This document shows, in pieces, positions 3 through 28,583 of a stretch of DNA of 33,135 bases. The position numbers were made by a program, and so were the translations under genes. A model generated the notes under the pieces. That model searched no databases. It was not told where the DNA came from and was given only the letters and a program-made list of their open reading frames with translations. How positions within the stretch are numbered: position 1 is the first letter of the stretch; each line of letters begins with the position of its first letter. This stretch comes from a bacterium (GTDB taxonomy: Bacteria > Patescibacteriota > Gracilibacteria > BD1-5 > UBA2023): positions 1 through 33,135 of the forward strand of contig JAYWGH010000016.1 of the NCBI GenBank assembly GCA_043778375.1. Reading direction: 5' to 3'.

Positions 3-239
3 GACGCTGAATTTCCAGGTGATAGGGCGAGCACGTGTGGCGGACTCATGCAGGCGATCGATCTCACCCAAAAAAAGCATAAGTGACTTGTGATCCTCCA
101 TCACTGTAGTAAGTGTGGTAAAGAGATCACTAATATCCCCGCTCCAGATGATGAGATCGCGGAGTTTATGATGCGACTCCCGGATATACGATTGCAGAGG
201 CAAAAGGGGCGAAAAGCGGTAGATATTTACTCAATTTAG
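3..239 (+). CDS. RNHCP-domain protein, C-terminal part (truncated by window edge)
   Basis: Reads DAEFPGDRASTCGGLMQAID...G(TGA 84-86)LVILHHCSKCG...APDD to TAG 237-239, matching the PGDRAxxCGGLM / HxCxxCG pattern. Confidence 0.8.
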
Positions 240-241
240 GT

Positions 242-799
242 ATGCGAAATTGAGCACAAAACCTCTGGGATGTAGCAGGACTCCAAAAACCTGCCACTCC
301 AGTAGTCAGAACGTCACCTCCAACTCAAGTTAGTCGGGTACTTGAGCGTACTCTCGAGCTTGCAGACAGAGCAGAACGAGTAAGACTCCAAATGATCGAA
401 ATAGCTAAAAGAGAGGTAAACACTGCACTTGATATACAAAGGCGGAGTACTATTGAGAGAATAGTACAAGAAGCAGTAGAAGGGCTTCGAGATAAGATGA
501 GTACGCGATTTACTCGGAGTATTGGGAGGCGTAACTCTGTTGCTGAGTATGTAAATGATTTGAGTTTTTCACTCATGTGAGACTGTACGCTTGGTCACTA
601 TAAAATCTCCTTCCGTCTTGTGAAGGAAATATCTGATACCACAGGTCGCTATGATACTCTCTATATTACTGATGGGTACTCGCAAGAGTCTATAAAAGAA
701 AGTCTCAGGAATAAGACACATAGCGGTGTATATGTCCTAACATGAACTATTGTTTCCCTCATTATTTTCCGAGCTATTAAAGATAGTTTCTACAGATAA
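242..799 (+). CDS. hypothetical protein (185 aa, code 25)
   Basis: ATG 242 to TAA 797-799 is open when 3 TGA are read as Gly; includes ORF-track fragment 392-580. Confidence 0.6.
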
Positions 800-834
800 G
801 TAATCCCAAATTTGAGTCCATAGGCTCCTCAAGT

Positions 835-1776
835 ATGACACAACACATGTACGACCAAGTTATCGAGCACATCAAATCTCTCACCTCCCCAATCGTCATC
901 GGAGTATCAGGCGGGATTGATAGTATGGTGCTTCTGGCACTCGCTCTGCGTGCTAAGTCTGCGAGCGATATCATAGTGGTGCACATCGATCATGCTATAC
1001 GCCCAGAGAGTCATCTCGATGCGGAGTTCCTGAGAGCATCCTGCAAAGGGCTCGGTGTTGAGTGTGAAGTCATACGAGTGGATGTCCCTAATCTCGCTAC
1101 GAGTAAAAAGATCTCCCTCGAGGCCGCAGGCCGAGAGGCACGATACGCCTGCTTTGAGCGAGTGCGCGCGTGTCACTGAGCCTTGTCTATTCTCACAGGG
1201 CATCACGCGGGGGATCAGGCAGAGACAGTGCTCCTCAATCTTATCCGTGGAAGTCGACTGCGTGGTCTCTCGGGTATGCAGAGCACTCAATGAGTCCTCG
1301 TGCGTCCAATGCTCACTCTTTCAAAGTCAGATATCACTGCGTATGCAACTGCAGAGACAATCCCTTTTGTAAAAGATGCTACGAATACCGATACTGCTTA
1401 TCTACGCAATCGCATCAGACAGAATATCCTCCCGGAGATGGCACTCATCAATCCTCGCATAGAGGCGACTCTGTGTGAGCTCGCGGAGTATGCTCGAGAG
1501 CTCGATCAGGCTCTCGAGGGTCTCATCGGAGTGTATCTCACAGGTGAGAGCATCAGTGAAAAGGAGTTCGCTAGTCTCTCCCCTCTCCTCCAACGAACCC
1601 TCATAGAACGGCTCTACGCTCGAGCTCATAATGAGAGTACGATCGGTCTCTCGAGAGGCAATATTGATGAACTTTGTCGATACATCTCTGAGGCTACTGG
1701 TGGCACGAGCAAGGATCTGGGAAAACTCAAGCTCACAAAAAAAACACGAAAGGTGTACTGGAATTATTGACAATAG
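835..1776 (+). CDS. tilS: tRNA(Ile)-lysidine synthetase, short form
   Basis: VSGGIDS PP-loop, [34 protein letters not shown]...YLRNRIR; fragments joined through TGA; true stop TAG 1774-1776. Confidence 0.95.
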
Positions 1777-1793
1777 AGTATTGCAAGTATAGT
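1767..1793 (+). promoter_or_regulatory. sigma70-like promoter TTGACA-N15-TATAGT
   Basis: TTGACA 1767-1772, TATAGT 1788-1793, ATGs at 1798 and 1801 (leaderless geometry). Confidence 0.55.
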
Positions 1794-1797
1794 AGTA

Positions 1798-2172
1798 ATG
1801 ATGAAAACATTTCTCCCCTATATTTTTGCAGGCAGCCTGAGTCTTGGAGGATGTACAAATGATAAGGGTCCCCCTCCCCAACTAGAGTATGCAGAGAATT
1901 GAGTAATCGCTATACTTGTAGAGAAAGTACGACTCAAAGTAGGGAACTGTAGTAATGAAGCAACAGTCCTAGAGCTGGCACAAGAAGGTATTGATATACA
2001 CGAAGATGAGCACTGACTTACTGCTTCAAAAGTACAAAAAATATGTCTGACTCAAGAGATAGAGCCTTACGAGGGTGTAATATTTATAACTGACCGTGGT
2101 CACTATTTCAGTGTAAGTGGGGCAAATAACTCCAAGTATAATAAACTCCACTTCGCTCCGAGTCTTATCTAA
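1798..2172 (+). CDS. putative lipoprotein, hypothetical
   Basis: MMKTFLPYIFAGSLSLGGC signal with lipobox-like LGGC; 2 in-frame TGA; TAA 2170-2172; absent from the ORF track. Confidence 0.65.
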
Positions 2173-2753
2173 ATATCACTCCCTTGAGCCCCTCTATCTC
2201 AGGAATTCGTAGATGCCCTCCGCTCTCGATAGTGTGGAGCTCAGCCGTAGGGATCTTCTCTCGGATATAGAGAGCATCAGCGTACGGCACGACCTCATCA
2301 TCGAGTGCGTGCCAAATATGAATATTCTCGGTCCTCCCTGCTATTGCCTCCCAGTCCGCAGGTTCAGTAAATGAGCCCTCATTATAACATGCCGCCATGA
2401 GATGGAGTTGCCGTGCTTTGAGGTTTCTTTCAGTCAGGTACTTGATGAGGGAGTTCCCCCCGAGTGAGTGACCTATCAAAGTGATCTCCACATTGACTGG
2501 CAGGAGCTTTACCAGACGATCCATGTAGAGTCTCCACTCAGTATAGTGTGCATTTATACCACTCGGAAACTCTGGACTATAGACTGTATAGCCACAACTC
2601 AGTGCCTCTTTTTTAATTTTACTTTTCCAGCTTTCGGGGCTGACCTCTTGAGTATATTGTTCTATCCTGTAGTCCTCGGCGATATAGCTATATGTACTCA
2701 TTGTGGGTCTTCCAAGAGTGTCCCCCATGCACGCAAATGAGTACCTTTTTCAT
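2165..2753 (-). pseudogene. alpha/beta hydrolase (RBBP9/YdeN family), frameshifted near 2690 (pseudogene or sequence error)
   Basis: N-terminal MKKVLICVHGG... from ATG 2753 hits TAG 2688-2690; body with GHSLGG, WHALDDEVVP, GGH is in another frame. Confidence 0.75.
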
Positions 2754-2754
2754 A

Positions 2755-4002
2755 TTATCCCTCGATGACTGTTTTGGATTTCTTTGCAGACTTCTTGGCT
2801 ACAGGTACGACGAGCTCTCACGTTACTCCCCCATTCGGGAGATGCTTATCAGCGATCTGATTGGCGATTTGCTGTTGTGCGAGCATAAAGAGTGTCCCGA
2901 TAAACCAATACATTCCAACTCCATACGGAAAGTAAATAGTCGATATTCCGATCATCAAAGGCATCCCATAGAGCATGAATTTATTCATAAGATTTGGGTC
3001 TGGCATCATAGAGTTTGGATCTCGAGTGGAAGTATCTATCGCGGGCTTGCCACGCTGAGAGAGCCAGATCTGTGCAAATTGTGTAAACCCAACTATGAGC
3101 GCAAGACCCACTCCGATCACTCCTCCCATCTTGAGGAGATCAACTCCAAAGAAAATGTGCTCGATACGAGTGATATCAAAGTCTTTGAACAAAGTATAAA
3201 AATAGTACACATTACTGTGATCCTGGATCGAGATGAGCACCCAATAGAGAACAATGAGTATGGGAGTCTGGATGAGGAGTGGGAGACACGAGCCGAGTGG
3301 ATTTACCTTTTCTCGCTTGTAGAGCTCCATGAGCTCCATCCCCATTTTTGCCTGGTCTCACTTGAACTTTGCTTGGAGAGCTGCAATCTTTGGCTGTATT
3401 GCCTGCATTTTTCGAGCAGATACGAGCATCTGATGCTGAGGTACGAGGAGAATAATCCGTACTATGATCGTGATCGCGATAATCGCGAGTCCGAGCGAGT
3501 GACCTGGGAGATACTCTATAAGTCCGATGAATAGATTGAGAACTGGAGCATAGAAGAGTGTGGCGAGAAGTGATCGAAAGAATCCTCGTTCCTGTACTTC
3601 TACCGTAGAAGTAAGTGGCTCAGAAATCCCTGGGAGTGCCAGCTTAAACCCTATATTCCCAGGCTTGGTGAATATCGCCGTGAGTGCCGTAAGATCGATA
3701 TCGCCGCTGGATTTTGCTCCTACTTTGATATCTCTACAAAACGCTCCGTCACTCTCGGTAGTGGCAACTGTACGGAGATCCGCGAGAACTGTGAGATCCC
3801 GACAAGTATTAAAAGCGAGCTCTGTATCAGAGGGATTTTGTACCGTAACTTTTGGATAGTTTGGGACTACCGTACTCGTCTTTGAGAGCACAAGATGAGG
3901 AGCAGTCGGAGCCTGCTTGGTCTCTGGCTTTGGGAGAAAAATATTGAGGAGTAGTAGACCAATAAAGGTAACTATGAGTATATTGAGGAGACGATCTTTC
4001 AT
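2755..4002 (-). CDS. yidC: membrane protein insertase YidC
   Basis: GLAIIAITIIVRIILL, KMQAIQPKI, KFK-G(TGA 3358-3360)-DQAKM, VNPLGSCLPLLIQTPIL, GMYW; stop TAA 2755-2757; downstream of rnpA. Confidence 0.95.
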
Positions 4003-4010
4003 GGGAAGTT

Positions 4011-4415
4011 TTAGAGTTTTGGAGACTTGATAGGAGTGCGGTGCACGATGCGTACTGGAGGGACAGTCGAGGCTCCAGCAAATACTTTGCGCAGGAGATG
4101 ATCTATATCAGCCTCAAACTGGGCAACCATCGCAGAGTCCTTACGGTTACAGATAATTCACTTTTTGACGACTATCGCGACATCAAGTCCAGGGTTTGTG
4201 AGGTATTGCCTCGTCAAATCATAGAAGTTGCGACGATAGAAGTTGCGATCTACACTCGTTTTTGCGACCTTCCCCGAAAGGATAAGACCAAAGCGCGAAA
4301 TCTCAAGTGAGTTTCGGATCACATTCGCGATCGCGAAATTTGAAAAGAAAGGTTTTTTATATTTTAAAACCTTTCCTATTTGATTCTCGGTAAGACGAAA
4401 CGCCTTTTTGATCAT
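4011..4415 (-). CDS. rnpA: ribonuclease P protein component
   Basis: RFGLILSGKVAKTSVDRNFYRR (RNR motif); reads through TGA 4158-4160 to TAA 4011-4013; between rpmH and yidC. Confidence 0.9.
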
Positions 4416-22076: not shown

Positions 22077-23798
22077 ATGACTTCTGAATCCCCAAAACTC
22101 AGTACTTCTCCAAATAGCTCGTGAAAAATTCATGAGCTACTGTCCGTTGCAAATGGGCAAGAGCTATCCACTTATCTATCAGGTTTAACTCCTATTGAAC
22201 AAGAAACTCAAAAAAGTAAGCTTGTACACGCTCTAAATACTGATAAAGAACTCCAAGATTATAAATTAACTGGGGATCAAAATTTGATCAACGATAAAGT
22301 GAATGAAATATTAAAAAATTTAGTGTCTCTACAAACAGGGCAAGAGAAGGTACAAACGTTGCAAGTAGTAGAACAGAAAGGGCAAGTAGTAGAACAAACA
22401 GGACAAATAAGAGTACAGAAAGGGCAAGTAGGAGAACAAACAGGACAAATAAGAGTACAGAAAGGGCAAGTAGTAGAACAGAAAGGGCAAGTAGATATTA
22501 AAGCTGGTATAGAAACAGCTGACTCCCTCAAATCAGCAGAACGAGCTCTCGATGCTAAGATTCTTGGTCTTACAGGTCGTTCAGGGAAAGATCTTATCCC
22601 AGACTACTCTACCAAAGTAGCTGCCGCAGAGCGAGAGCTCAGGAGCACAGGCAAAGACCCGACTCTCGCTACCGGTATGGTACTCCTCGCGAGCGAGACT
22701 GAGATCATACGCGCGATCCCTCCTGAGAAGCGGGCGGGTATCCCCGATCTCCAAAAGCAGTTTGCAGAGTTCCGCAAAAGCTCGGAGTCTCTCGGTCTTC
22801 CGAGCCGATCACCCGCATCGATAGCACTCGTAGAACCAAAGGTAACCCTCGAAGTTTACCAGAAAGTACGATCTGGTTTTGAGCCTCCCACTACCCCCGT
22901 ATATCTCCGTAATGGGGAGCTCCAGAGTCAATCGAGTCTCGGCCCAAACCGTACATTCATGAATCTTGAGACTGGAAAGCGTGATCGAGAACAGGGAGGA
23001 CTACGAATCCCGAGTAATGTCCCAGATCCAAGCCCTGATAGTCAGCAGACTCAAGCAAAGATAACCGACAAACAGTCCGAAAAAGCTCAACTCCTTTCCA
23101 GGGCCCCATCATACCTCAACGGAGTCGCTACTCTACTTGAGAGGGTTGATCCTACCGTACAGACTCCCCAGTTTTTAGCGCTTCGTCAGAGTCTCACCAC
23201 CCCAAATACTCAGGTCTCGAGTGCCCAGGCAGCTGGTCTCATCGAGCAGTACGCATGTAGTAGAGAATTTAGTACCCTACCAGAGGCAATTCGTAAGCAC
23301 TTTCTGGCAAGTGATGGACCGGTAGCAGGATACATAAAAACTCTCAAAACTGCAGAAGCTCGAGAGCAGGATATCGATAATCTGCGTAAAGAACTCCCAG
23401 ACAGGGAGGTAAAAGATCGTATCTGAGATCAAGACCAAGCAGTAGATGCCAATCTCGGCATGCTCGTGAGACTTGGGTTTAGTAAACTCGGACAAGGCAG
23501 TGATATACAGACAAACTACCAAAATATTCTTACAGAGTTAAACATTACGCGCAGAAATACCAATGCGAGTGGTAACATCATCGATACACAGAGATTTAGT
23601 GAAAATACTGGTACTGTTGAGCAGCTAAAAAGAGTTATTGGTGCCCTTCTCCCCGAGCAGTATCAAGCAGAGTACACTAGCTCAGGCTCACTCAGTCCGT
23701 CAGCTGCAGCATCTCTCCAACTCCGAGGAGTTATCAGCACAGATGAGATCAAAGCAGCGGCTAGCAAGGCGCTTTCGGGAGCTACTGAGACAAAGTAA
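22077..23798 (+). CDS. large hypothetical protein with heptad repeats (573 aa)
   Basis: ATG 22077, TGA read-through near the start and at 23424-23426, TAA 23796-23798. Confidence 0.78.
22332..22499 (+). repeat. 21-bp coding tandem repeat (~8 units)
   Basis: QTGQEKV QTLQVVE QKGQVVE QTGQIRV QKGQVGE QTGQIRV QKGQVVE QKGQVDI. Confidence 0.9.
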
Positions 23799-23807
23799 AA
23801 ACAATGT

Positions 23808-23981
23808 ATGACCGATAGTACTCTCGTTCTCACTTCATCTCAGCAAGATGACGAACCTTTGCAGACTCAGGCAGGGAGTAAACTCGAGCGGTACTTTACT
23901 CAGCGCACCGAGCTTGAATCAAGTCAACCCGTACTCAGTCTCGTAGATATAGACGCTCTCGTACATGAGTATCGCGTGTAA
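23808..23981 (+). CDS. small acidic hypothetical protein (57 aa)
   Basis: MTDSTLVLTSSQQDDEP...DIDALVHEYRV*; fills the gap between genes, host-like codons. Confidence 0.5.
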   Translation: MTDSTLVLTSSQQDDEPLQTQAGSKLERYFTQRTELESSQPVLSLVDIDALVHEYRV

Positions 23982-23982
23982 T

Positions 23983-24010
23983 TTGACACAAAAAGGTATA
24001 AAAATATACT
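23983..24010 (+). promoter_or_regulatory. predicted promoter TTGACA-N16-TATACT
   Basis: Near-consensus hexamers; ATG 24020 lies 9 nt downstream. Confidence 0.65.
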
Positions 24011-24019
24011 CTCTTGTGC

Positions 24020-24601
24020 ATGATATATACTATTTCCGATCTCCAAAGCACCTGGTGAGTCAATGGGAATACCCTTCGTAAGAGGATTATTTACCATATC
24101 CGCACCAAAAAACTCTTTCGACTCCGCAATTGACTCTACCGTACGACTGACTCAGACCCAGTATCCGAGAGAGAGCGACTCATAATAGCCAATAAGTCCC
24201 TCTCCCCATCATACCTGTCTTTTGAGACGGCGCTCATGTATCATGGGATCATATCCCAGCACACGAGCATAGTAACTCTCGCACACCATAGGGCTCGCCA
24301 TATACAGATAGACCTGATAGACCAGTCTCCCATCATCATCGAGTCTCGCCGACTCCCCCAGGAGATGCTCTACAATCCACTCGGTATAGAGTTTACCCCC
24401 GAGTTTACCATCGCAGGCCCTGAGAGAGCGATAGCAGATATGCTCCACCGATCTCCACATACATATTTTGACAATATAGAAGATCTCGACCCTCTCCTCC
24501 TGCAAAGGCTTGCAGACGAGTATCTCACTCGGTCCCCACGAGCTAGGGCAGAAATTCATACACTTCTCAATCATGCAAACGAATATACAAGCCTGGTCTA
24601 G
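24020..24601 (+). CDS. type IV TA AbiEi-like antitoxin, copy 1
   Basis: LFRLRNG(TGA)LY, ANK..PSYLSFETALMYHGII, IAGPERAIADML; 2 in-frame TGA. Confidence 0.85.
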
Positions 24602-25331
24602 TGCACACCGCGCTGCGATGTCACTCTTCCTCGTGACTCTCGGGAAGTCTGCATTTTCAAGTGTTTTCGGATTTAAAGGTGGGACGGTGCTCATGTTTTT
24701 TTATGGACTCGAGAGGTTTTCGGTGGATCTCGACTTTGACTATCTCAGTACAGAGGGGCACATGAGTGTCGCTCGTGATCTCACTGCATGGATAGGCAAA
24801 AATTTTCCAACTTGGGTGATAAAAAATAGCACAAAAGACAATATCCCCACCATCAAAATATTTTGCGACTATGGTCTGGACCGCAAGCTAAAAATAGAAA
24901 TATCCTGGCCTGTCTGCCCAAACCACTATGAGCTTCGAGAGCTCTATGGTGCACCACTCAAGGTTATGAGAGCGGATTGTATGTTTGCAAACAAGCTCAT
25001 TGCTGTCTACTCAAGATATACAAAACGAGAACGGATAGCCAACAGAGACCTTTATGATGTAGAGTTTTTTGCCCGCAAAAATATCCTCCCAAGCAGTACT
25101 GTCATACGCTGCCGTACTGCCCGCATGGAGATAGGTGCGATGAGCACACGAGAGTATTTGGTTTTTCTAAAGCAGTTTCTCGTGACAGAGCAAAGATCTA
25201 TTGAGCCAAATATCCTTGATGGTCTCGGAGATCTCATCGTATCAAGTGCCGAGAGACAGCGCCTCCAGAGTCATCTTTTTGGTGATGTGCAGGGCTCTCT
25301 CGCACGCCTGATCGACCTCAGTAGTGAGTAG
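24573..25331 (+). CDS. AbiEii/AbiGii nucleotidyltransferase toxin
   Basis: FKGGT, LERFSVDLDF, KIEIS, ANKLIA, RDLYD. Confidence 0.92.
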   Translation: MQTNIQAWSSAHRAAMSLFLVTLGKSAFSSVFGFKGGTVLMFFYGLERFSVDLDFDYLSTEGHMSVARDLTAWIGKNFPTWVIKNSTKDNIPTIKIFCDYGLDRKLKIEISWPVCPNHYELRELYGAPLKVMRADCMFANKLIAVYSRYTKRERIANRDLYDVEFFARKNILPSSTVIRCRTARMEIGAMSTREYLVFLKQFLVTEQRSIEPNILDGLGDLIVSSAERQRLQSHLFGDVQGSLARLIDLSSE

Positions 25332-25390
25332 TGCATACTTCCCCTTGAGTAATCCCTCCGAGACGATAAAATAATTGCTCTCAATCTCCC

Positions 25391-25984
25391 ATGATATTCT
25401 CCCTCTCAGACCTCAAGCTTCGATGGAGTCTCAAAGGTAAAAAGCTCCAGCATCGCATCCACTATCATATGGGGACGGGCGAGCTCGTGATGATAAAAAA
25501 GGATCTCTTCTCGACTATAAGCCTAGAAAAACTCGAGTACTTTGACTTTTGTGCACTCGCAAACAAAGTCGTCACCCCGTCGTATGTATCCTTTGAGAGC
25601 GCGCTCATCCACTACGGAGTTGTGTTCCCATTTAACGATCGTATCAGCGTGGCATACCCTCTCTCCAAAAGAGTAAAGCTCGATATACTCGGGCGCCCCT
25701 CACTCGTGATCCGAGCTGAGGCACTCCCTACAGAAGTCCTCGCCAATCCTCTCGGGATCACTCAGATAGATGGAATATTCATCGCCTCACGAGAGCGCGC
25801 TGTGGCAGATATCCTCCACCGATCACCCGAGTATTGGTTTGATAGTCCTGAGTCGATCGACCTGGAGCTCCTCGAGACGATGACCTGTGTATACACTCCA
25901 GTATCCGAGACCACTCCTGGAGTGATACGGGATTTTATTGCAAAGATGCAGATGCTACGCTCTGCTGCAGCTACTCAAAAATAA
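25391..25984 (+). CDS. type IV TA AbiEi-like antitoxin, copy 2
   Basis: ANKVVTPSYVSFESALIHYGVV, IASRERAVADIL; paralog of 24020-24601; own TTGAGT-N16-TAAAAT at 25345-25372. Confidence 0.85.
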   Translation: MIFSLSDLKLRWSLKGKKLQHRIHYHMGTGELVMIKKDLFSTISLEKLEYFDFCALANKVVTPSYVSFESALIHYGVVFPFNDRISVAYPLSKRVKLDILGRPSLVIRAEALPTEVLANPLGITQIDGIFIASRERAVADILHRSPEYWFDSPESIDLELLETMTCVYTPVSETTPGVIRDFIAKMQMLRSAAATQK

Positions 25985-25985
25985 T

Positions 25986-26099
25986 TGCAGACCCGTTTAG
26001 TCTGAGTTTTATCCAGGTAAATGCAAGTATAACCCGTAAGGATCATTAGTGAGTCAGTAGCAGAGTAAATTACCTCTGCAGACCCATTTAGTACGAGTT
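25986..26099. repeat. imperfect 23-bp direct repeat pair
   Basis: TGCAGACCCGTTTAGTCTGAGTT (25986-26008) vs TGCAGACCCATTTAGTACGAGTT (26077-26099), 20/23 identical. Confidence 0.75.
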
Positions 26100-26745
26100 A
26101 CCCCCCAAGCTTGATGGTACGACCAGCGCGAGCCGCCACCACTGGGTCATGTGTGATCATTAGGATCGTACTCCCTGTCTCGCTGTGGAGCTCCTCAAGG
26201 AGACTCATGATGCGATCCGCATTGATGCGATCGAGGTTACCAGTTGGCTCATCCGCATAGAGATATGGGAGTTTACCCACAAAGGCTCTCGCGATTGCGA
26301 CTCGCTGTCTCTCCCCTCCCGAGAGGCTATCTGGATACCGATTTGCCTTACCCGTGAGTCCGACTCGCGCGAGGATCTCCTCGAGATCATACGCCCGCTC
26401 TACTGATCGATTGATATCGAGAGGGAGCTCGATATTCTCCCGCACGGTGAGAGTTGGGATGAGCTCAAAAGTCTGGAATATATATGCAATATTCGCTCCT
26501 CGAAAGGCCGTAATCTCCTCACTCCCTCGGAGTCCCGTAAGAGAGCGTGACCCGATCATAATATCTCCCGCATCTGGAGCAATGAGCCCACTCGCAAGAC
26601 CGAGCAGGGTAGATTTACCAGAGCCCGATGGCCCCATAATGGCAACGAATTCTCCTGTCTTGATCTGAAAAGAAAAATCCTTAAATATCTCAGTAGTCTC
26701 GCCAGCTACGGTATAGGACTTATAAACATTTGAAAATTGTATCAT
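26098..26745 (-). CDS. ABC transporter ATP-binding protein (YbbA/LolD type)
   Basis: GPSGSGKST, LSGGERQRVAIARA, ADEPTGNLD. Confidence 0.95.
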   Translation of the reverse strand: MIQFSNVYKSYTVAGETTEIFKDFSFQIKTGEFVAIMGPSGSGKSTLLGLASGLIAPDAGDIMIGSRSLTGLRGSEEITAFRGANIAYIFQTFELIPTLTVRENIELPLDINRSVERAYDLEEILARVGLTGKANRYPDSLSGGERQRVAIARAFVGKLPYLYADEPTGNLDRINADRIMSLLEELHSETGSTILMITHDPVVAARAGRTIKLGG

Positions 26746-26748
26746 GAG

Positions 26749-27414
26749 TTATTTGGTAATGAGTGAGTTTTTAAGGAGTGAGTCGAAGACATTTTTGGCA
26801 ACTATTGCATACCCCTCACGAGTAGGGTGGATACCGTCCCCAAGATTGAGAGCAGGTACAGCCGCGACATCCTGGAGAAAGAACTCCATCAGTGGCACTT
26901 TGAACTCGTCAGCAAGTCGTGGGTAAATGCTCTCAAACTTTGCGCCATACGCTCGTCCGAGATTTGGAGGAGCTTTCATCCCCGTCAGGAGAGTAGGAAT
27001 ACGCAGATCCACGAGTTTTTTGAGAATTGACCGGATATTTGCCTCGGTCGTACTTGGATCAATGCCCTGAAAGGCATCATTTGCCCCGATCTCCACGATC
27101 GCAAGAGTCGGATGCTCTACAGGATCAGTCCCGATCGTCCAGTCGAGACGAGCAAGGAGCTGCGCAGTCGTATCTCCTGATATCCCTGCATTTCGTACGC
27201 TATGGGAGTATCCCTCTGCCCGCAACAGTGCCTCGAGTTGCACGGTATAACTCTCCTCAGGTGGGAGATTGTATCCTGCAGTGAGGGAGTCGCCAAGTGC
27301 GAGGATGATAGGGGTTTTGCCGTTCGTAGGCATTACAGGAGTTACTTTCTCAGGAGTACTCCCGCATCCAGTCAGGATCATAGTAGTGAAGAGTAGAGAT
27401 AAAAGCTTGATCAT
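26749..27414 (-). CDS. arylesterase / acyl-CoA thioesterase I (TesA-like SGNH lipoprotein)
   Basis: LTGC lipobox, GDSLTAGY, NAGISGDTT, GAND, DGIHP. Confidence 0.92.
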   Translation of the reverse strand: MIKLLSLLFTTMILTGCGSTPEKVTPVMPTNGKTPIILALGDSLTAGYNLPPEESYTVQLEALLRAEGYSHSVRNAGISGDTTAQLLARLDWTIGTDPVEHPTLAIVEIGANDAFQGIDPSTTEANIRSILKKLVDLRIPTLLTGMKAPPNLGRAYGAKFESIYPRLADEFKVPLMEFFLQDVAAVPALNLGDGIHPTREGYAIVAKNVFDSLLKNSLITK

Positions 27415-27422
27415 AAATGGTT

Positions 27423-28583
27423 TTATGCAAATACTCTGCGTCTGAGCATCACGAGAATACCAATCACTGCCCCAAAGTAAATACCACCCGCCACATAAAA
27501 TGGCAGCACATGCGCATGGGAGTACAGCACGCCCGCAAGAGTCGGTCCGATAATATTCCCTACACTCATCGCCGAGCTATTGAGTCCGAGGTACGCACCT
27601 ACTCGTCCCCCAGCGCGAGCCGATATGAGGGCTCCGATCGCGGGCATGATGCTCCCATTTCATATTGCTAAAAGTGGGGTCAAAAACCAGAGATACAAAC
27701 TTGCTGGTGAAAATGCAAAAAGTGGGAGGGCAATAGTGAGAATACCAAACCCCATAATGAGGAGTGGCACTTCTGTCATGTATCGCCGTACCCATCGCAT
27801 CGCAAGTCACTGATAGAGTATCGCTGAGATCCCCACTATGATGAGAACATACGATATCATCGTCGCACTAAAGGCAAAAGTATCCGTCAAATACTGTCCC
27901 GAGAGACTTTGGATCGGGGCAAATCCTACAGCCGAGAGAAATGTGAGCGAGAGGAGGAGTATAAATCTCGGACTAAACTCTATCTTTACCGCCTCTGCCT
28001 CTGGAGTCTTCACCCTCACCGGCTCTGGAAGGAGAAGATAGATGAGGATGAGGTTGAGTGAAGCCGCTACCACTCCCGCAAGTGCTACTATGTGGAGTCC
28101 AAAAGGCGCAAGAATCCCCCCAATTGCAGGTCCCACCAAAAACGCAATTCCAAACATCGCGCCAATGAGTCCAATATTTTTGGCGCGATCAGCAGGAGCT
28201 GATATATCACTCATGTACGCCTGGATGACGGCGATCCCCCCTCCGGCGAGTCCCGCGATAAACCTCCCAATGAGAAACAGTGGAAATCCACTCGCAAGCA
28301 GTAAAAACAAGAATCCTCATATATTCGCACTTGTCGTCATCATTATCGCAGCTCTGCGCCCGAGGGTATCAGACCATTTCCCAAAAAAGAATCCCCCGAT
28401 AAATGTCCCAAGCGCAAATACCGCCATACTATACCCAACCCACTCCCCTCCTACGCCAAACCCAGCAACAATCGCAGGAAATGACGGGATGAGTATCCCA
28501 AGTCCCACAATATCCAAAAATGCCGTGAGGAGTATGAGCGGGAATTGGAAGCGCTGGAAGCGCTTTGAGAGGGAGAGATTCAT
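27423..28583 (-). CDS. MFS transporter (TetA/DHA1-like)
   Basis: DIVGLGILIP, GKWSDTLGRR, GRFIAG, GPAIGG; three ORFs joined by TGA. Confidence 0.92.

What the first reader, a model, noticed from the sequence alone, without database searches (positions are those of the whole stretch)
24020..25984. AbiE triad: antitoxin-toxin-antitoxin, with the two antitoxins differing in UGA dependence
Seen: one AbiEii nucleotidyltransferase sits between two diverged AbiEi-like paralogs (shared MIxxxSDL...W, ANK..PSYxSFExAL, LxNPLGI, IAxxERAxADxLHRSP..FD). Each paralog has its own predicted promoter. Antitoxin 1 has two in-frame TGA codons (24056, 24131), while the toxin and antitoxin 2 have none. Known: AbiE type IV systems are normally two-gene, and related MenT toxins modify tRNA. 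Inference: this is a three-component system in which the second antitoxin has a separate role. Antitoxin 1 synthesis depends on UGA-Gly decoding, so the locus could respond to loss of UGA decoding (for example a phage release factor or tRNA damage) or behave differently after transfer to a standard-code cell. The codon asymmetry could also be chance.
Basis: partly seen in the sequence, partly recalled or inferred. Interest (0 to 1): 0.72.

Follow-up and report, generated by a model that had tools for sequence, protein, structure and literature searches.

The report
AbiE toxin pair plus spare antitoxin
A small inserted cassette in a bacterium that reads TGA as glycine carries an ordinary AbiE antitoxin-toxin pair followed by a second, intact antitoxin gene with no toxin of its own, and the uneven use of TGA codons among the three genes looks like chance.

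Summary
The anatomy is real. Antitoxin 1 (24020-24601, in-frame TGA at 24056 and 24131), an AbiEii nucleotidyltransferase toxin (24573-25331) and antitoxin 2 (25391-25984) lie head to tail in a 2.3-kb island that a same-genus genome lacks. The genome uses code 25.

The functional reading is not supported:
- **TGA asymmetry fits chance.** It is 2 of 6 Gly codons against 0 of 22 (post-hoc Fisher p 0.04). 54 of 601 adjacent gene triplets have at least two TGA-free genes. In 26 other TGA-using AbiE loci, 23 carry TGA in both genes.
- **Antitoxin 1 is the toxin's co-evolved partner.** The genes overlap by 29 nt, and the toxin's nearest kin appear to share contigs with antitoxin 1's nearest kin.
- **Antitoxin 2 is a diverged member of the same subfamily.** It is intact and folds confidently as AbiEi, with a 73%-identical full-length relative elsewhere.

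No other intact A-T-A was found in 203 surveyed locus records. Seven or eight tandem AbiE arrays exist, one with a broken second toxin. Antitoxin 2 is therefore most likely the survivor of a tandem second module that lost its toxin. Whether it still neutralises the toxin is untested.

The parts
23799..26097 (.). Inserted island relative to a same-genus genome
   Evidence: In G005 the homolog of the 573-aa gene (window 22077-23798) ends against the ABC ATPase homolog (window 26098-26745), with no AbiE genes between them.
23808..23981 (+). 57-aa ORF of unknown function inside the island, no TGA
   Evidence: ORF list. No Pfam family. No match to the AbiE proteins or to the G005 neighbour. May not be a gene.
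23983..24010 (+). Sigma-70-like promoter (TTGACA, 16 nt, TATACT; 11 of 12), ending 9 nt before the antitoxin 1 ATG
   Evidence: The number of sites in the region is not above shuffles. A 90-95% variant strain (X3) differs from the window immediately upstream of 23982.
24020..24601 (+). Antitoxin 1, AbiEi family, 193 aa, TGA (Gly) codons at 24056-24058 and 24131-24133
   Evidence: PADLOC AbiEi 1e-25. The 90%-identical P0115 has W at both TGA sites, i.e. TGA read by code 4. The Gly at 24131 is conserved in 87% of the family.
24573..25331 (+). AbiEii/DUF1814 nucleotidyltransferase toxin, 252 aa, overlapping antitoxin 1 by 29 nt
   Evidence: Pfam PF08843 2.1e-18. PADLOC 8e-35. Profile hits to 4o8s (1e-15) and 9hlo_B (4.7e-5). 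The GG, S50, D52xD54, E109 and R158-D159...D162 positions are invariant in the 6-sequence alignment.
25345..25372 (+). Weak promoter-like site (TTGAGT, 16 nt, TAAAAT; 9 of 12) in the 59-nt gap before antitoxin 2
   Evidence: No terminator-like site lies between the toxin and antitoxin 2, so co-transcription is equally possible.
25391..25984 (+). Antitoxin 2, AbiEi family, 197 aa, no TGA, no toxin downstream
   Evidence: PADLOC AbiEi 7.7e-22. AlphaFold2 model pLDDT 95.3, pTM 0.88. Best Foldseek PDB match is 6y8q_A AbiEi, E 1.1e-5. P0119 is 73% identical and 197 aa long.
25988..26004 (.). Terminator-like hairpin on both strands just after antitoxin 2
23855..23869 (+). Left copy of a short direct repeat (contains TGCAGACTC)
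   Evidence: Repeat D13. The 9-mer TGCAGACYC occurs 3 times in the 33-kb window, all at the island edges, against 0.57 expected; 1 of 100 shuffles reached 3.
25986..26099 (+). Two further copies of the repeat (25986-26008 and 26077-26099, 87% alike) bracketing the 113-nt spacer after antitoxin 2
   Evidence: Repeat D5. In runs X1 and X2 another contig carries an 86%-like copy of 25984-26095 preceded by unrelated sequence.

Best explanation
This is an AbiE (COG5340 antitoxin / DUF1814 nucleotidyltransferase toxin) cassette, inserted as a 2.3-kb island in a genome that reads TGA as glycine.

Antitoxin 1 and the toxin are the working pair. They have one promoter and overlapping genes, and the toxin keeps its catalytic motifs. 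By homology with Streptococcus agalactiae AbiE and the mycobacterial MenAT systems, the antitoxin binds the toxin and makes it phosphorylate its own active-site Ser50, which switches it off. When antitoxin supply fails, for example during phage infection, unmodified toxin blocks translation.

Antitoxin 2 is a second, intact AbiEi of the same subfamily but a different lineage. It is most likely what remains of a second AbiE module that once sat in tandem and lost its toxin. It is kept because an orphan antitoxin is harmless and can still protect against this toxin or related ones.

The two TGA codons in antitoxin 1, and their absence from the other two genes, are ordinary codon-usage scatter.

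Shown here: gene content, island status, family membership, the fold of antitoxin 2, the survey of gene orders, and the TGA statistics. Inferred: the neutralisation mechanism, the tandem-module origin, and any present activity of antitoxin 2.
For: Pair status of antitoxin 1 and the toxin
- The genes overlap by 29 nt, behind an 11/12 promoter-like site.
- The toxin's nearest relatives are P0002, P0003 and P0004 (43-49% identity; SH-aLRT 97).
- P0004 and the AbiEi P0127 each lie on a single Logan contig of 46,913 nt. P0003 and the AbiEi P0120 each lie on one of 3,346 nt.
- P0127 (41.5%) and P0120 (40%) are closer to antitoxin 1 than antitoxin 2 is (35%). Antitoxin 1 groups with P0127 at SH-aLRT 90.

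Toxin is intact
- It has Pfam and PADLOC matches.
- In the profile alignment to 9hlo_B, the residue equivalent to the T65 phosphoacceptor is the invariant S50 in RFSVDLDF.
- The mechanism comes from preprint 10.64898/2026.01.19.700257 (abstract and sections 5, 9, 10, 12 read) and PMC11375011 (passages read).

Antitoxin 2 is a real, maintained gene
- The model has pLDDT 95.3, and AbiEi 6y8q is the top fold match.
- It keeps 7 of 10 N-terminal and 13 of 18 C-terminal family-conserved residues.
- P0119 is a full-length relative at 73% identity.
- In the 95-99% variant of run X2, the 11 listed changes give 5 replacements, all in the tail (residues 166-191), and 25247-25599 is unchanged.

Tandem-module origin
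- Seven or eight of 203 other locus records are tandem AbiE arrays: L019, L067, L091, L140, L156, L162, L206 and perhaps L139.
- L019, from the same class, is A-T-A followed by a toxin broken into 69-aa and 51-aa ORFs with the middle missing.
- Gaps between modules in such arrays are about 110-230 nt, against 59 nt here.
- Orphan AbiEi copies are reported in mycoplasmas (PMC8562856, passages read).

TGA scatter
- TGA is 13.5% of Gly codons genome-wide.
- P(0 TGA) is 0.13 for the toxin and 0.31 for antitoxin 2.
- 61 of 294 genes of 150-300 aa are TGA-free.
- 54 of 601 adjacent triplets have at least two TGA-free genes.
- This genome's second AbiE pair, on contig C20, has 4 TGA in the toxin and 1 in the antitoxin.
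Against: - No trace of a second toxin remains. The 113 nt after antitoxin 2 gave no AbiEii match in the HMM scan, so the tandem origin rests on analogy.
- The 59-nt gap to antitoxin 2 is shorter than in the tandem arrays seen.
- Toxin-then-antitoxin order is itself a natural arrangement. 25 loci have it, and RlegTA/SanaTA are described that way in section 12 of the preprint. Toxin plus antitoxin 2 could therefore be a working pair.
- Trees with thinner sampling made the two antitoxins sisters (SH-aLRT 92 and 87.7). In the larger tree their relation is unresolved within a 6-row group (support 80), so an old duplication of the antitoxin alone is not excluded.
- Pairing of P0127 with P0004 and of P0120 with P0003 is inferred only from equal contig lengths. 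The contigs could not be read.
- All trees are quick searches with SH-aLRT support only.
- The Fisher test on Gly codons gives p 0.04, which is not nothing, although it is post hoc.
- No inverted-repeat operator of 8 nt or more was found before antitoxin 1, unlike the S. agalactiae system.
Confidence: 0.55

Rival explanations
1. This is a true three-gene system. Both antitoxins act on the single toxin, with divided labour. For example, antitoxin 1 would be the autoregulating partner made from the operon promoter, and antitoxin 2 a separately expressed back-up or threshold setter, combining the AbiE order (antitoxin first) with the SanaTA/RlegTA order (toxin first).
For: - Antitoxin 2 is intact, confidently folded and conserved.
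- It lies only 59 nt after the toxin with no terminator between, and has a weak promoter-like site of its own.
- All three genes are present in a second strain variant, X2.
- Toxin-first order is common in nature: 25 loci, and section 12 of the preprint.
- The loop of antitoxin 2 that would face the toxin (GVVFPFND) resembles that of P0120 (GVVFQFSD), the presumed partner of a close toxin relative.
Against: - No other intact A-T-A was found in 203 locus records.
- Antitoxin 2 does not fall in the toxin-first clade of AbiEi.
- No toxin relative sits on a contig of the length that holds P0119 (7,560 nt). This is weak, because split TGA-containing toxins would be missed.
- The promoter site is not above chance.
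Confidence: 0.25
2. This is a UGA-decoding sensor. Antitoxin 1 needs tRNA(UCA) while the toxin does not, so loss of UGA-to-Gly decoding (a phage release factor, or tRNA damage) would free the toxin.
For: - The two TGA codons are real, and both are kept in the 90% variant P0115.
- The first TGA site also reads W in the distant relative P0127.
- The genome has a single tRNA(UCA) gene.
- Fisher p is 0.04 for 2 of 6 against 0 of 22 Gly codons.
Against: - 638 of 761 crude genes need UGA decoding, so the signal is not specific to antitoxin 1.
- Antitoxin 2 has no TGA and would go on being made, which defeats the switch if it neutralises the toxin.
- In 26 other TGA-using AbiE loci, 23 have TGA in both genes, including 2-11 in full-length toxins.
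- The toxin's close relatives P0004 and P0005 show W at conserved Gly sites, i.e. TGA in the toxin.
- 9% of adjacent gene triplets show the same pattern.
- The test is post hoc.
Confidence: 0.04
3. Antitoxin 2 is a functionless leftover on its way to decay, or arose from a duplication of the antitoxin gene alone with no second toxin ever present.
For: - It has no partner toxin.
- It has lost the Gly of the family's RRGxY motif (D in antitoxin 2, R in P0119; Gly in 87% of the family).
- Its stem branch is the longest in the group (1.13).
- The public annotation starts it at Met27.
Against: - The reading frame is intact across 27% divergence (P0119, 197 aa).
- The model is high-confidence.
- Replacements in the X2 variant are confined to the C-terminal tail.
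- 13 of 18 conserved C-terminal residues are kept.
Confidence: 0.15

Closest known systems
AbiE (AbiEi/AbiEii) of Streptococcus agalactiae and Lactococcus lactis; structures 6Y8Q and 9HLO
   Same: - It has a DUF1814 nucleotidyltransferase toxin with the conserved motifs and a Ser at the T65-equivalent position.
- The antitoxin is a two-domain AbiEi, encoded upstream of and overlapping the toxin.
- The model of antitoxin 2 best matches 6y8q.
   Different: - There are three genes, not two.
- Sequence identity to the solved proteins is very low: the profile E-value to 6y8q/9hlo_A is only 0.39.
- No inverted-repeat operator was found.
- The host uses code 25.
MenAT3/MenAT4 of Mycobacterium tuberculosis (MenA3 is an AbiEi homolog; toxin auto-phosphorylation, tRNA acceptor-stem modification)
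   Same: It belongs to the same toxin superfamily and the same antitoxin family. The expected mode of neutralisation is antitoxin-induced auto-phosphorylation (PMC11375011, passages read). 1zel (Rv2827c) is among the fold matches of antitoxin 2.
   Different: The relation is distant. 6y56 matched the toxin profile only at E 0.02. The target and the phosphorylation are untested here.
SanaTA / RlegTA / SdenTA and the mycoplasma T160/A161 pair (toxin gene first, COG5340-like antitoxin second)
   Same: The order of the toxin and antitoxin 2 is the same as in these systems. 25 such toxin-first loci were seen.
   Different: Antitoxin 2 does not belong to the toxin-first clade of AbiEi in the tree. 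Here an upstream antitoxin is also present.
Tandem AbiE arrays and orphan AbiEi genes
   Same: - L019 is A-T-A plus a broken toxin.
- L140 has three pairs in a row.
- Orphan AbiEi copies are reported in Mycoplasma mycoides (PMC8562856, passages read).
   Different: Here the second toxin is entirely gone. In addition, the two antitoxins belong to one subfamily, whereas in L019, L067 and L091 they come from different clades.

Membership tests
AbiE / COG5340-DUF1814 toxin-antitoxin (abortive infection) systems | Toxin carries the DUF1814 (AbiEii) nucleotidyltransferase domain | tested here: met
   Pfam PF08843 at E 2.1e-18, 67.6 bits against a cut-off of 22.5. PADLOC AbiEii PDLC02324 at 8.2e-35.
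AbiE / COG5340-DUF1814 toxin-antitoxin (abortive infection) systems | Conserved catalytic motifs (GG, DxD, a central acidic residue, RDLxD) and a Ser/Thr at the phosphoacceptor position | tested here: met
   G36-G37, S50, D52, D54, E109 and R158-D159...D162 are invariant in 6 sequences. The profile alignment to 9hlo_B (E 4.7e-5) puts S50 opposite residue 65 of that chain. The motif names are recalled from Dy et al. 2014, which was not read here.
AbiE / COG5340-DUF1814 toxin-antitoxin (abortive infection) systems | Antitoxin of the AbiEi (COG5340) type, with a winged-helix N-terminal domain plus a C-terminal antitoxin domain | tested here: met
   PADLOC AbiEi for both antitoxins, 1e-25 and 7.7e-22, covering 165 and 158 of 186 profile positions. 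The antitoxin 2 model best matches 6y8q_A (E 1.1e-5, TM 0.46). Pfam gave no family for either. Antitoxin 1 was not folded.
AbiE / COG5340-DUF1814 toxin-antitoxin (abortive infection) systems | Two-gene operon, with the antitoxin upstream of and coupled to the toxin | tested here: inconclusive
   Met for antitoxin 1 and the toxin (29-nt overlap). The locus has a third gene, which the family definition does not include.
AbiE / COG5340-DUF1814 toxin-antitoxin (abortive infection) systems | Antitoxin autoregulates through inverted repeats in the promoter | tested here: not met
   No inverted repeat of 8 nt or more in 23900-24040 or 25320-25400. Only a 10-nt direct repeat was found, at 23939 and 23957. 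Operators differ between systems, so this is weak.
AbiE / COG5340-DUF1814 toxin-antitoxin (abortive infection) systems | Toxin arrests growth, the antitoxin relieves it, and the system aborts phage infection | not testable with these tools
   Needs expression and phage assays.
Toxin-first DUF1814 systems (SanaTA/RlegTA type) | Antitoxin encoded directly downstream of the toxin and belonging to the lineage that shows this order | tested here: not met
   The order is met for the toxin and antitoxin 2. However, the toxin-first AbiEi genes form their own 29-row clade (SH-aLRT 90), far from antitoxin 2.
Three-component toxin-antitoxin systems (e.g. with a second regulator or chaperone) | The third gene is conserved with the pair across relatives | tested here: not met
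   0 of 203 other locus records have an intact A-T-A. It is present only in near-identical strain variants from one study.

The most novel reading that the evidence does not exclude
The triad is a working three-part switch. The toxin would be held off by two antitoxins with different vulnerabilities: antitoxin 1 is autoregulated and UGA-dependent, while antitoxin 2 is separately expressed and UGA-independent. The cell would then respond differently to a general shut-off of host expression and to a specific attack on UGA decoding or on one antitoxin. Equivalently, antitoxin 2 could serve as immunity against related toxins brought in by phages or mobile elements.
Probability: 0.07. Interest if true: 0.7.

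Novelty: new member of a known kind. Interest (0 to 1): 0.3.

Why it matters
The main value is as a caution. In genomes that recode TGA, differences of a few TGA codons between neighbouring genes are expected by chance and should not be read as regulation.

The locus is also a clean example of how defence modules turn over in very small genomes. It is a discrete island bounded by short repeats and missing from a sister genome. It carries a canonical AbiE pair next to a stranded antitoxin, and an intermediate stage (a broken second toxin) is visible in a related genome.

If antitoxin 2 were shown to act on the toxin, it would be a natural test of how specific AbiEi-induced toxin auto-phosphorylation is between diverged partners.

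Tried and rejected
- **Complex prediction, toxin with antitoxin 2.** The verdict was 'no answer' (score 0.00, mark 0.32). This is no evidence either way. Twelve later hand-ins met a full queue.
- **Close relatives with context.** None closer than about 37% identity turned up in the GTDB species genomes or the JGI metagenomes.
- **RNA evidence.** No RNA holder was listed, so transcription units are unknown.
- **Run X3.** It gave no cover of antitoxin 2. A hole proves nothing.
- **Idea that antitoxin 2 has lost its DNA-binding charge: rejected.** Its N-terminal net charge (+4) is the family median. Antitoxin 1 is the unusual one, at +8, the 98th percentile.
- **Idea that the two antitoxins are strict sisters from a local duplication.** Thin trees suggested it. 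Adding representatives did not uphold it.
- **Idea that the 57-aa ORF is a toxin remnant or a displaced end of the neighbouring gene.** No similarity was found.
- **Idea that the spacer 25984-26100 is a genome-wide repeat.** No other copy exists in this assembly.
- **Phage homologs of antitoxin 2.** None in 50,697 phage records.
- **Sequence search of PDB with single proteins.** It gave nothing for the antitoxins. The profile search reached 6y8q/9hlo_A only at E 0.39.
- **Literature.** Three searches were run: AbiEi + AbiEii + tandem (41 papers, 15 listed), AbiEi + 'orphan antitoxin' (7 papers), and Gracilibacteria + toxin-antitoxin + UGA (3 papers). No listed title or abstract describes an AbiEi-AbiEii-AbiEi triad. 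This is not an exhaustive check.
Full report
**What is there**

Read with table 25, the stretch holds three same-strand genes.
- Antitoxin 1 runs 24020-24601 (193 aa).
- A toxin runs 24573-25331 (252 aa) and overlaps antitoxin 1 by 29 nt.
- After a 59-nt gap comes antitoxin 2, 25391-25984 (197 aa).

The toxin matches Pfam AbiEii (PF08843, E 2.1e-18) and PADLOC AbiEii (8e-35). Both flanking proteins match the same PADLOC AbiEi model best (1e-25 and 7.7e-22). Pfam named no family for either. The two are 35% identical without gaps. Antitoxin 1 has in-frame TGA at 24056 and 24131; the other two genes have none.

**The genetic code**

The assembly is 957,657 bases in 81 contigs.
- A crude gene set of 761 ORFs has TGA as 0.97% of codons and 13.5% of glycine codons.
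- 638 of the 761 carry at least one TGA.
- One tRNA with anticodon UCA is present.
- The TGA at 24131 falls on the Gly of the family's RRGxY motif, which is Gly in 87% of 124 other family members. TGA is therefore read as Gly, and antitoxin 1 is a normal full-length gene.

**Is the TGA asymmetry meaningful?**

The counts are 2 of 6 Gly codons in antitoxin 1, 0 of 14 in the toxin and 0 of 8 in antitoxin 2.
- Given the genome's usage, P(0) is 0.13 for the toxin and 0.31 for antitoxin 2.
- A post-hoc Fisher test of 2/6 against 0/22 gives 0.04.
- Empirically, 61 of 294 genes of 150-300 aa have no TGA, and 54 of 601 adjacent gene triplets have at least two TGA-free genes.
- Across 26 other AbiE loci from TGA-using genomes of the same class, 23 have TGA in both genes. 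Two have it only in the antitoxin (L007; and L016, whose toxin is a fragment). One has it only in the toxin (L008).
- This genome's own second AbiE pair, on contig C20, has 4 TGA in the toxin and 1 in the antitoxin.
- The toxin's close relatives P0004 and P0005 show W at conserved Gly positions, the mark of TGA read by code 4.

Some results lean the other way. The 90% variant P0115 keeps both TGA sites, and the distant P0127 reads W at the first site. Taken together, though, the asymmetry is what chance gives. Because 84% of genes need UGA decoding, antitoxin 1 would not be a specific sensor.

**The island**

A same-genus genome (G005) has the flanking genes in the same order. There, the homolog of the 573-aa gene ends against the ABC ATPase gene, with no AbiE genes between them. 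So 23799-26097 is an insertion here, or a deletion there.

Contigs from public runs of one study bear on this.
- Run X1, probably the source of this DNA, spans the whole stretch.
- Run X2 holds a 95-99% variant covering all three genes in pieces. Its sequence departs from the window after 25992.
- Run X3 holds a 90-95% variant of antitoxin 1 and of parts of the toxin. It departs upstream of 23982, and has no cover of antitoxin 2, which proves nothing.

The 9-mer TGCAGACYC occurs three times in the 33-kb window, at 23860, 25986 and 26077, that is, at the island's edges. The chance expectation is 0.57, and 1 of 100 shuffles reached 3.

**Which antitoxin belongs to the toxin?**

The toxin's nearest relatives are P0002, P0003 and P0004 (43-49% identity; they group with it at SH-aLRT 97).

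A search of 1.84 billion representatives with antitoxin 2 found only its own cluster below E 1e-30, followed by relatives at 37% identity or less. Adding these to the tree changed the picture. Antitoxin 1 (with P0115) now groups with P0127 (SH-aLRT 90). Antitoxin 2 (with P0119), P0120 and that pair form an unresolved six-row group (support 80), inside a 15-row subfamily (support 96).

Earlier trees with thinner sampling had made the two antitoxins sisters (SH-aLRT 92 and 87.7). That result did not survive denser sampling.

P0127 and P0004 each lie on a single Logan contig of 46,913 nt. P0120 and P0003 each lie on one of 3,346 nt. Most likely these are neighbours, although I could not read the contigs. 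If so, the toxin's kin pair with antitoxin 1's kin: 41.5% and 40% identity to antitoxin 1, against 33% and 36% to antitoxin 2. Together with the gene overlap and the strong promoter-like site at 23983-24010, this makes antitoxin 1 the co-evolved partner and antitoxin 2 the extra gene.

**Is antitoxin 2 a live gene?**

- Its AlphaFold2 model is confident (pLDDT 95.3, pTM 0.88).
- The model's best PDB match is AbiEi of S. agalactiae (6y8q_A: E 1.1e-5, TM 0.46).
- It keeps 7 of 10 N-terminal and 13 of 18 C-terminal positions that are conserved in at least 60% of the family, against 7/10 and 16/18 for antitoxin 1.
- It has lost the motif Gly: D here, R in P0119.
- P0119 is 73% identical and full-length.
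- In the X2 variant, 25247-25599 is unchanged, and the 11 listed differences give five replacements, all in residues 166-191.
- Rough counts suggest a replacement-to-silent ratio near 0.2 for antitoxin 2 and near 0.25 for antitoxin 1. These are estimates from pieces, not a proper test.
- The public protein for this gene starts at Met27 (P0271). The conserved first 26 residues argue for the 25391 start.

**How unusual is the order?**

I built HMMs of both families from the fetched loci and scanned two sets.
- *Set 1.* 123 locus records around AbiEi genes, from class-level genome searches and GTDB genomes; a few overlap one another. Counts: 82 antitoxin-toxin, 25 toxin-antitoxin, 10 antitoxin alone (several at contig ends), 3 tandem double pairs (L019, L067, L091), 1 convergent double pair, 1 T-A-T and 1 with a split toxin.
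- *Set 2.* 80 records around toxin relatives in metagenomes. Counts: 73 antitoxin-toxin, 3 double pairs, 1 triple pair (L140), 1 T...A-T, 1 pair followed 1.7 kb later by an AbiEi C-terminal fragment (L147), and 1 toxin at a locus edge.

No other intact A-T-A was seen in either set.

L019, from a genome of the same class, is A-T-A followed by a toxin broken into a 69-aa ORF that still carries the GG and DLDFD motifs and a 51-aa ORF with the C-terminus; the middle is gone. That is the expected intermediate if a tandem second module loses its toxin. In L019, L067 and L091 the two antitoxins come from different clades, so tandem arrays arise by juxtaposition as well as by duplication.

The toxin-first loci form their own AbiEi clade (29 rows, SH-aLRT 90), away from antitoxin 2.

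**Mechanism**

A 2026 preprint (10.64898/2026.01.19.700257; abstract and sections 5, 9, 10 and 12 read) makes the following points.
- S. agalactiae AbiEi binds AbiEii and induces auto-phosphorylation at T65, which abolishes nucleotidyltransferase activity.
- A loop of the antitoxin (D85/E86/I87) is needed for this.
- The system is reclassified as type VII.

PMC11375011 (passages read) reports the same logic for MenAT1 and MenAT3.

The toxin profile aligns to 9hlo_B (E 4.7e-5) with the invariant Ser50 of RFSVDLDF opposite residue 65 of that chain. I therefore infer the same control here.

The equivalent antitoxin loop differs between the two paralogs: HGIISQHTS in antitoxin 1 and YGVVFPFND in antitoxin 2, which the model shows as loop residues 75-83. 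Both types occur in the subfamily: P0127 has GINSQYSN and P0120 has GVVFQFSD. The loop therefore does not tell whether antitoxin 2 can act on this toxin. The alignment to the solved antitoxin is weak (E 0.39).

**Verdict**

The locus is a canonical AbiE pair plus a stranded but maintained AbiEi, in a small mobile-looking island. The antitoxin-toxin-antitoxin order is rare. Its most economical origin is decay of a tandem array. The TGA asymmetry is chance. A working three-part system is not excluded and would need bench tests.

Noticed in passing
G000 contig C20, about 27288-28263, minus strand (loci L002, L005): A second, canonical AbiEi-AbiEii pair in the same genome. It is 28% (antitoxin) and 42% (toxin) identical to the window's genes, with 1 TGA in the antitoxin and 4 in the toxin.
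   Followed up: partly
window 23860, 25986, 26077: The 9-mer TGCAGACYC occurs only three times in the 33-kb window, all on the + strand at the edges of the AbiE island, inside longer imperfect direct repeats (15-23 nt). These could be insertion-site or recombination scars.
   Followed up: partly
L053, L056, L059, L065, L069 and 20 more loci: A monophyletic group of AbiEi-like genes lies directly downstream of its DUF1814 toxin (toxin-first order). It is spread over Chloroflexota, Actinomycetota, Patescibacteria and others. Their toxins match only the first two thirds of the toxin HMM.
   Followed up: partly
L019 (G175:C15), 1438-2369: In a tandem AbiE array, the second toxin is split into 69-aa and 51-aa ORFs with the middle deleted, while its antitoxin is intact.
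   Followed up: yes
L140 (metagenome contig), 195-4196: Three AbiEi-AbiEii pairs lie head to tail within 4 kb.
   Followed up: no
window 25391-25468: The public protein for antitoxin 2 starts at Met27 (171 aa, P0271). The upstream 26 codons are conserved in P0119 and in antitoxin 1, so the annotated start is probably too far downstream.
   Followed up: yes
window 24020-24601: No exact entry for antitoxin 1 came back from the protein collection; the best hit was the 90% variant P0115, read with W at the TGA sites. Under table 11 the gene shrinks to a 121-aa ORF (24236-24601). Standard-code gene calls therefore hide this antitoxin.
   Followed up: partly
window 22330-22520 (inside the 573-aa ORF 22077-23798): The neighbouring large protein, with no Pfam family, contains a run of short peptide repeats (VEQKGQV / EQTGQIRVQKGQV). 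Its G005 homolog is only 33% identical.
   Followed up: no
window 24005-24020: The -10 element of the strong promoter-like site ends 9 nt before the antitoxin 1 ATG, so the operon mRNA would be leaderless or nearly so.
   Followed up: no
G000 contig C7, 946-1024: This is the only tRNA with anticodon UCA in the assembly (37 tRNAs found). Only two tRNAs were labelled Gly: UCA and UCC.
   Followed up: no
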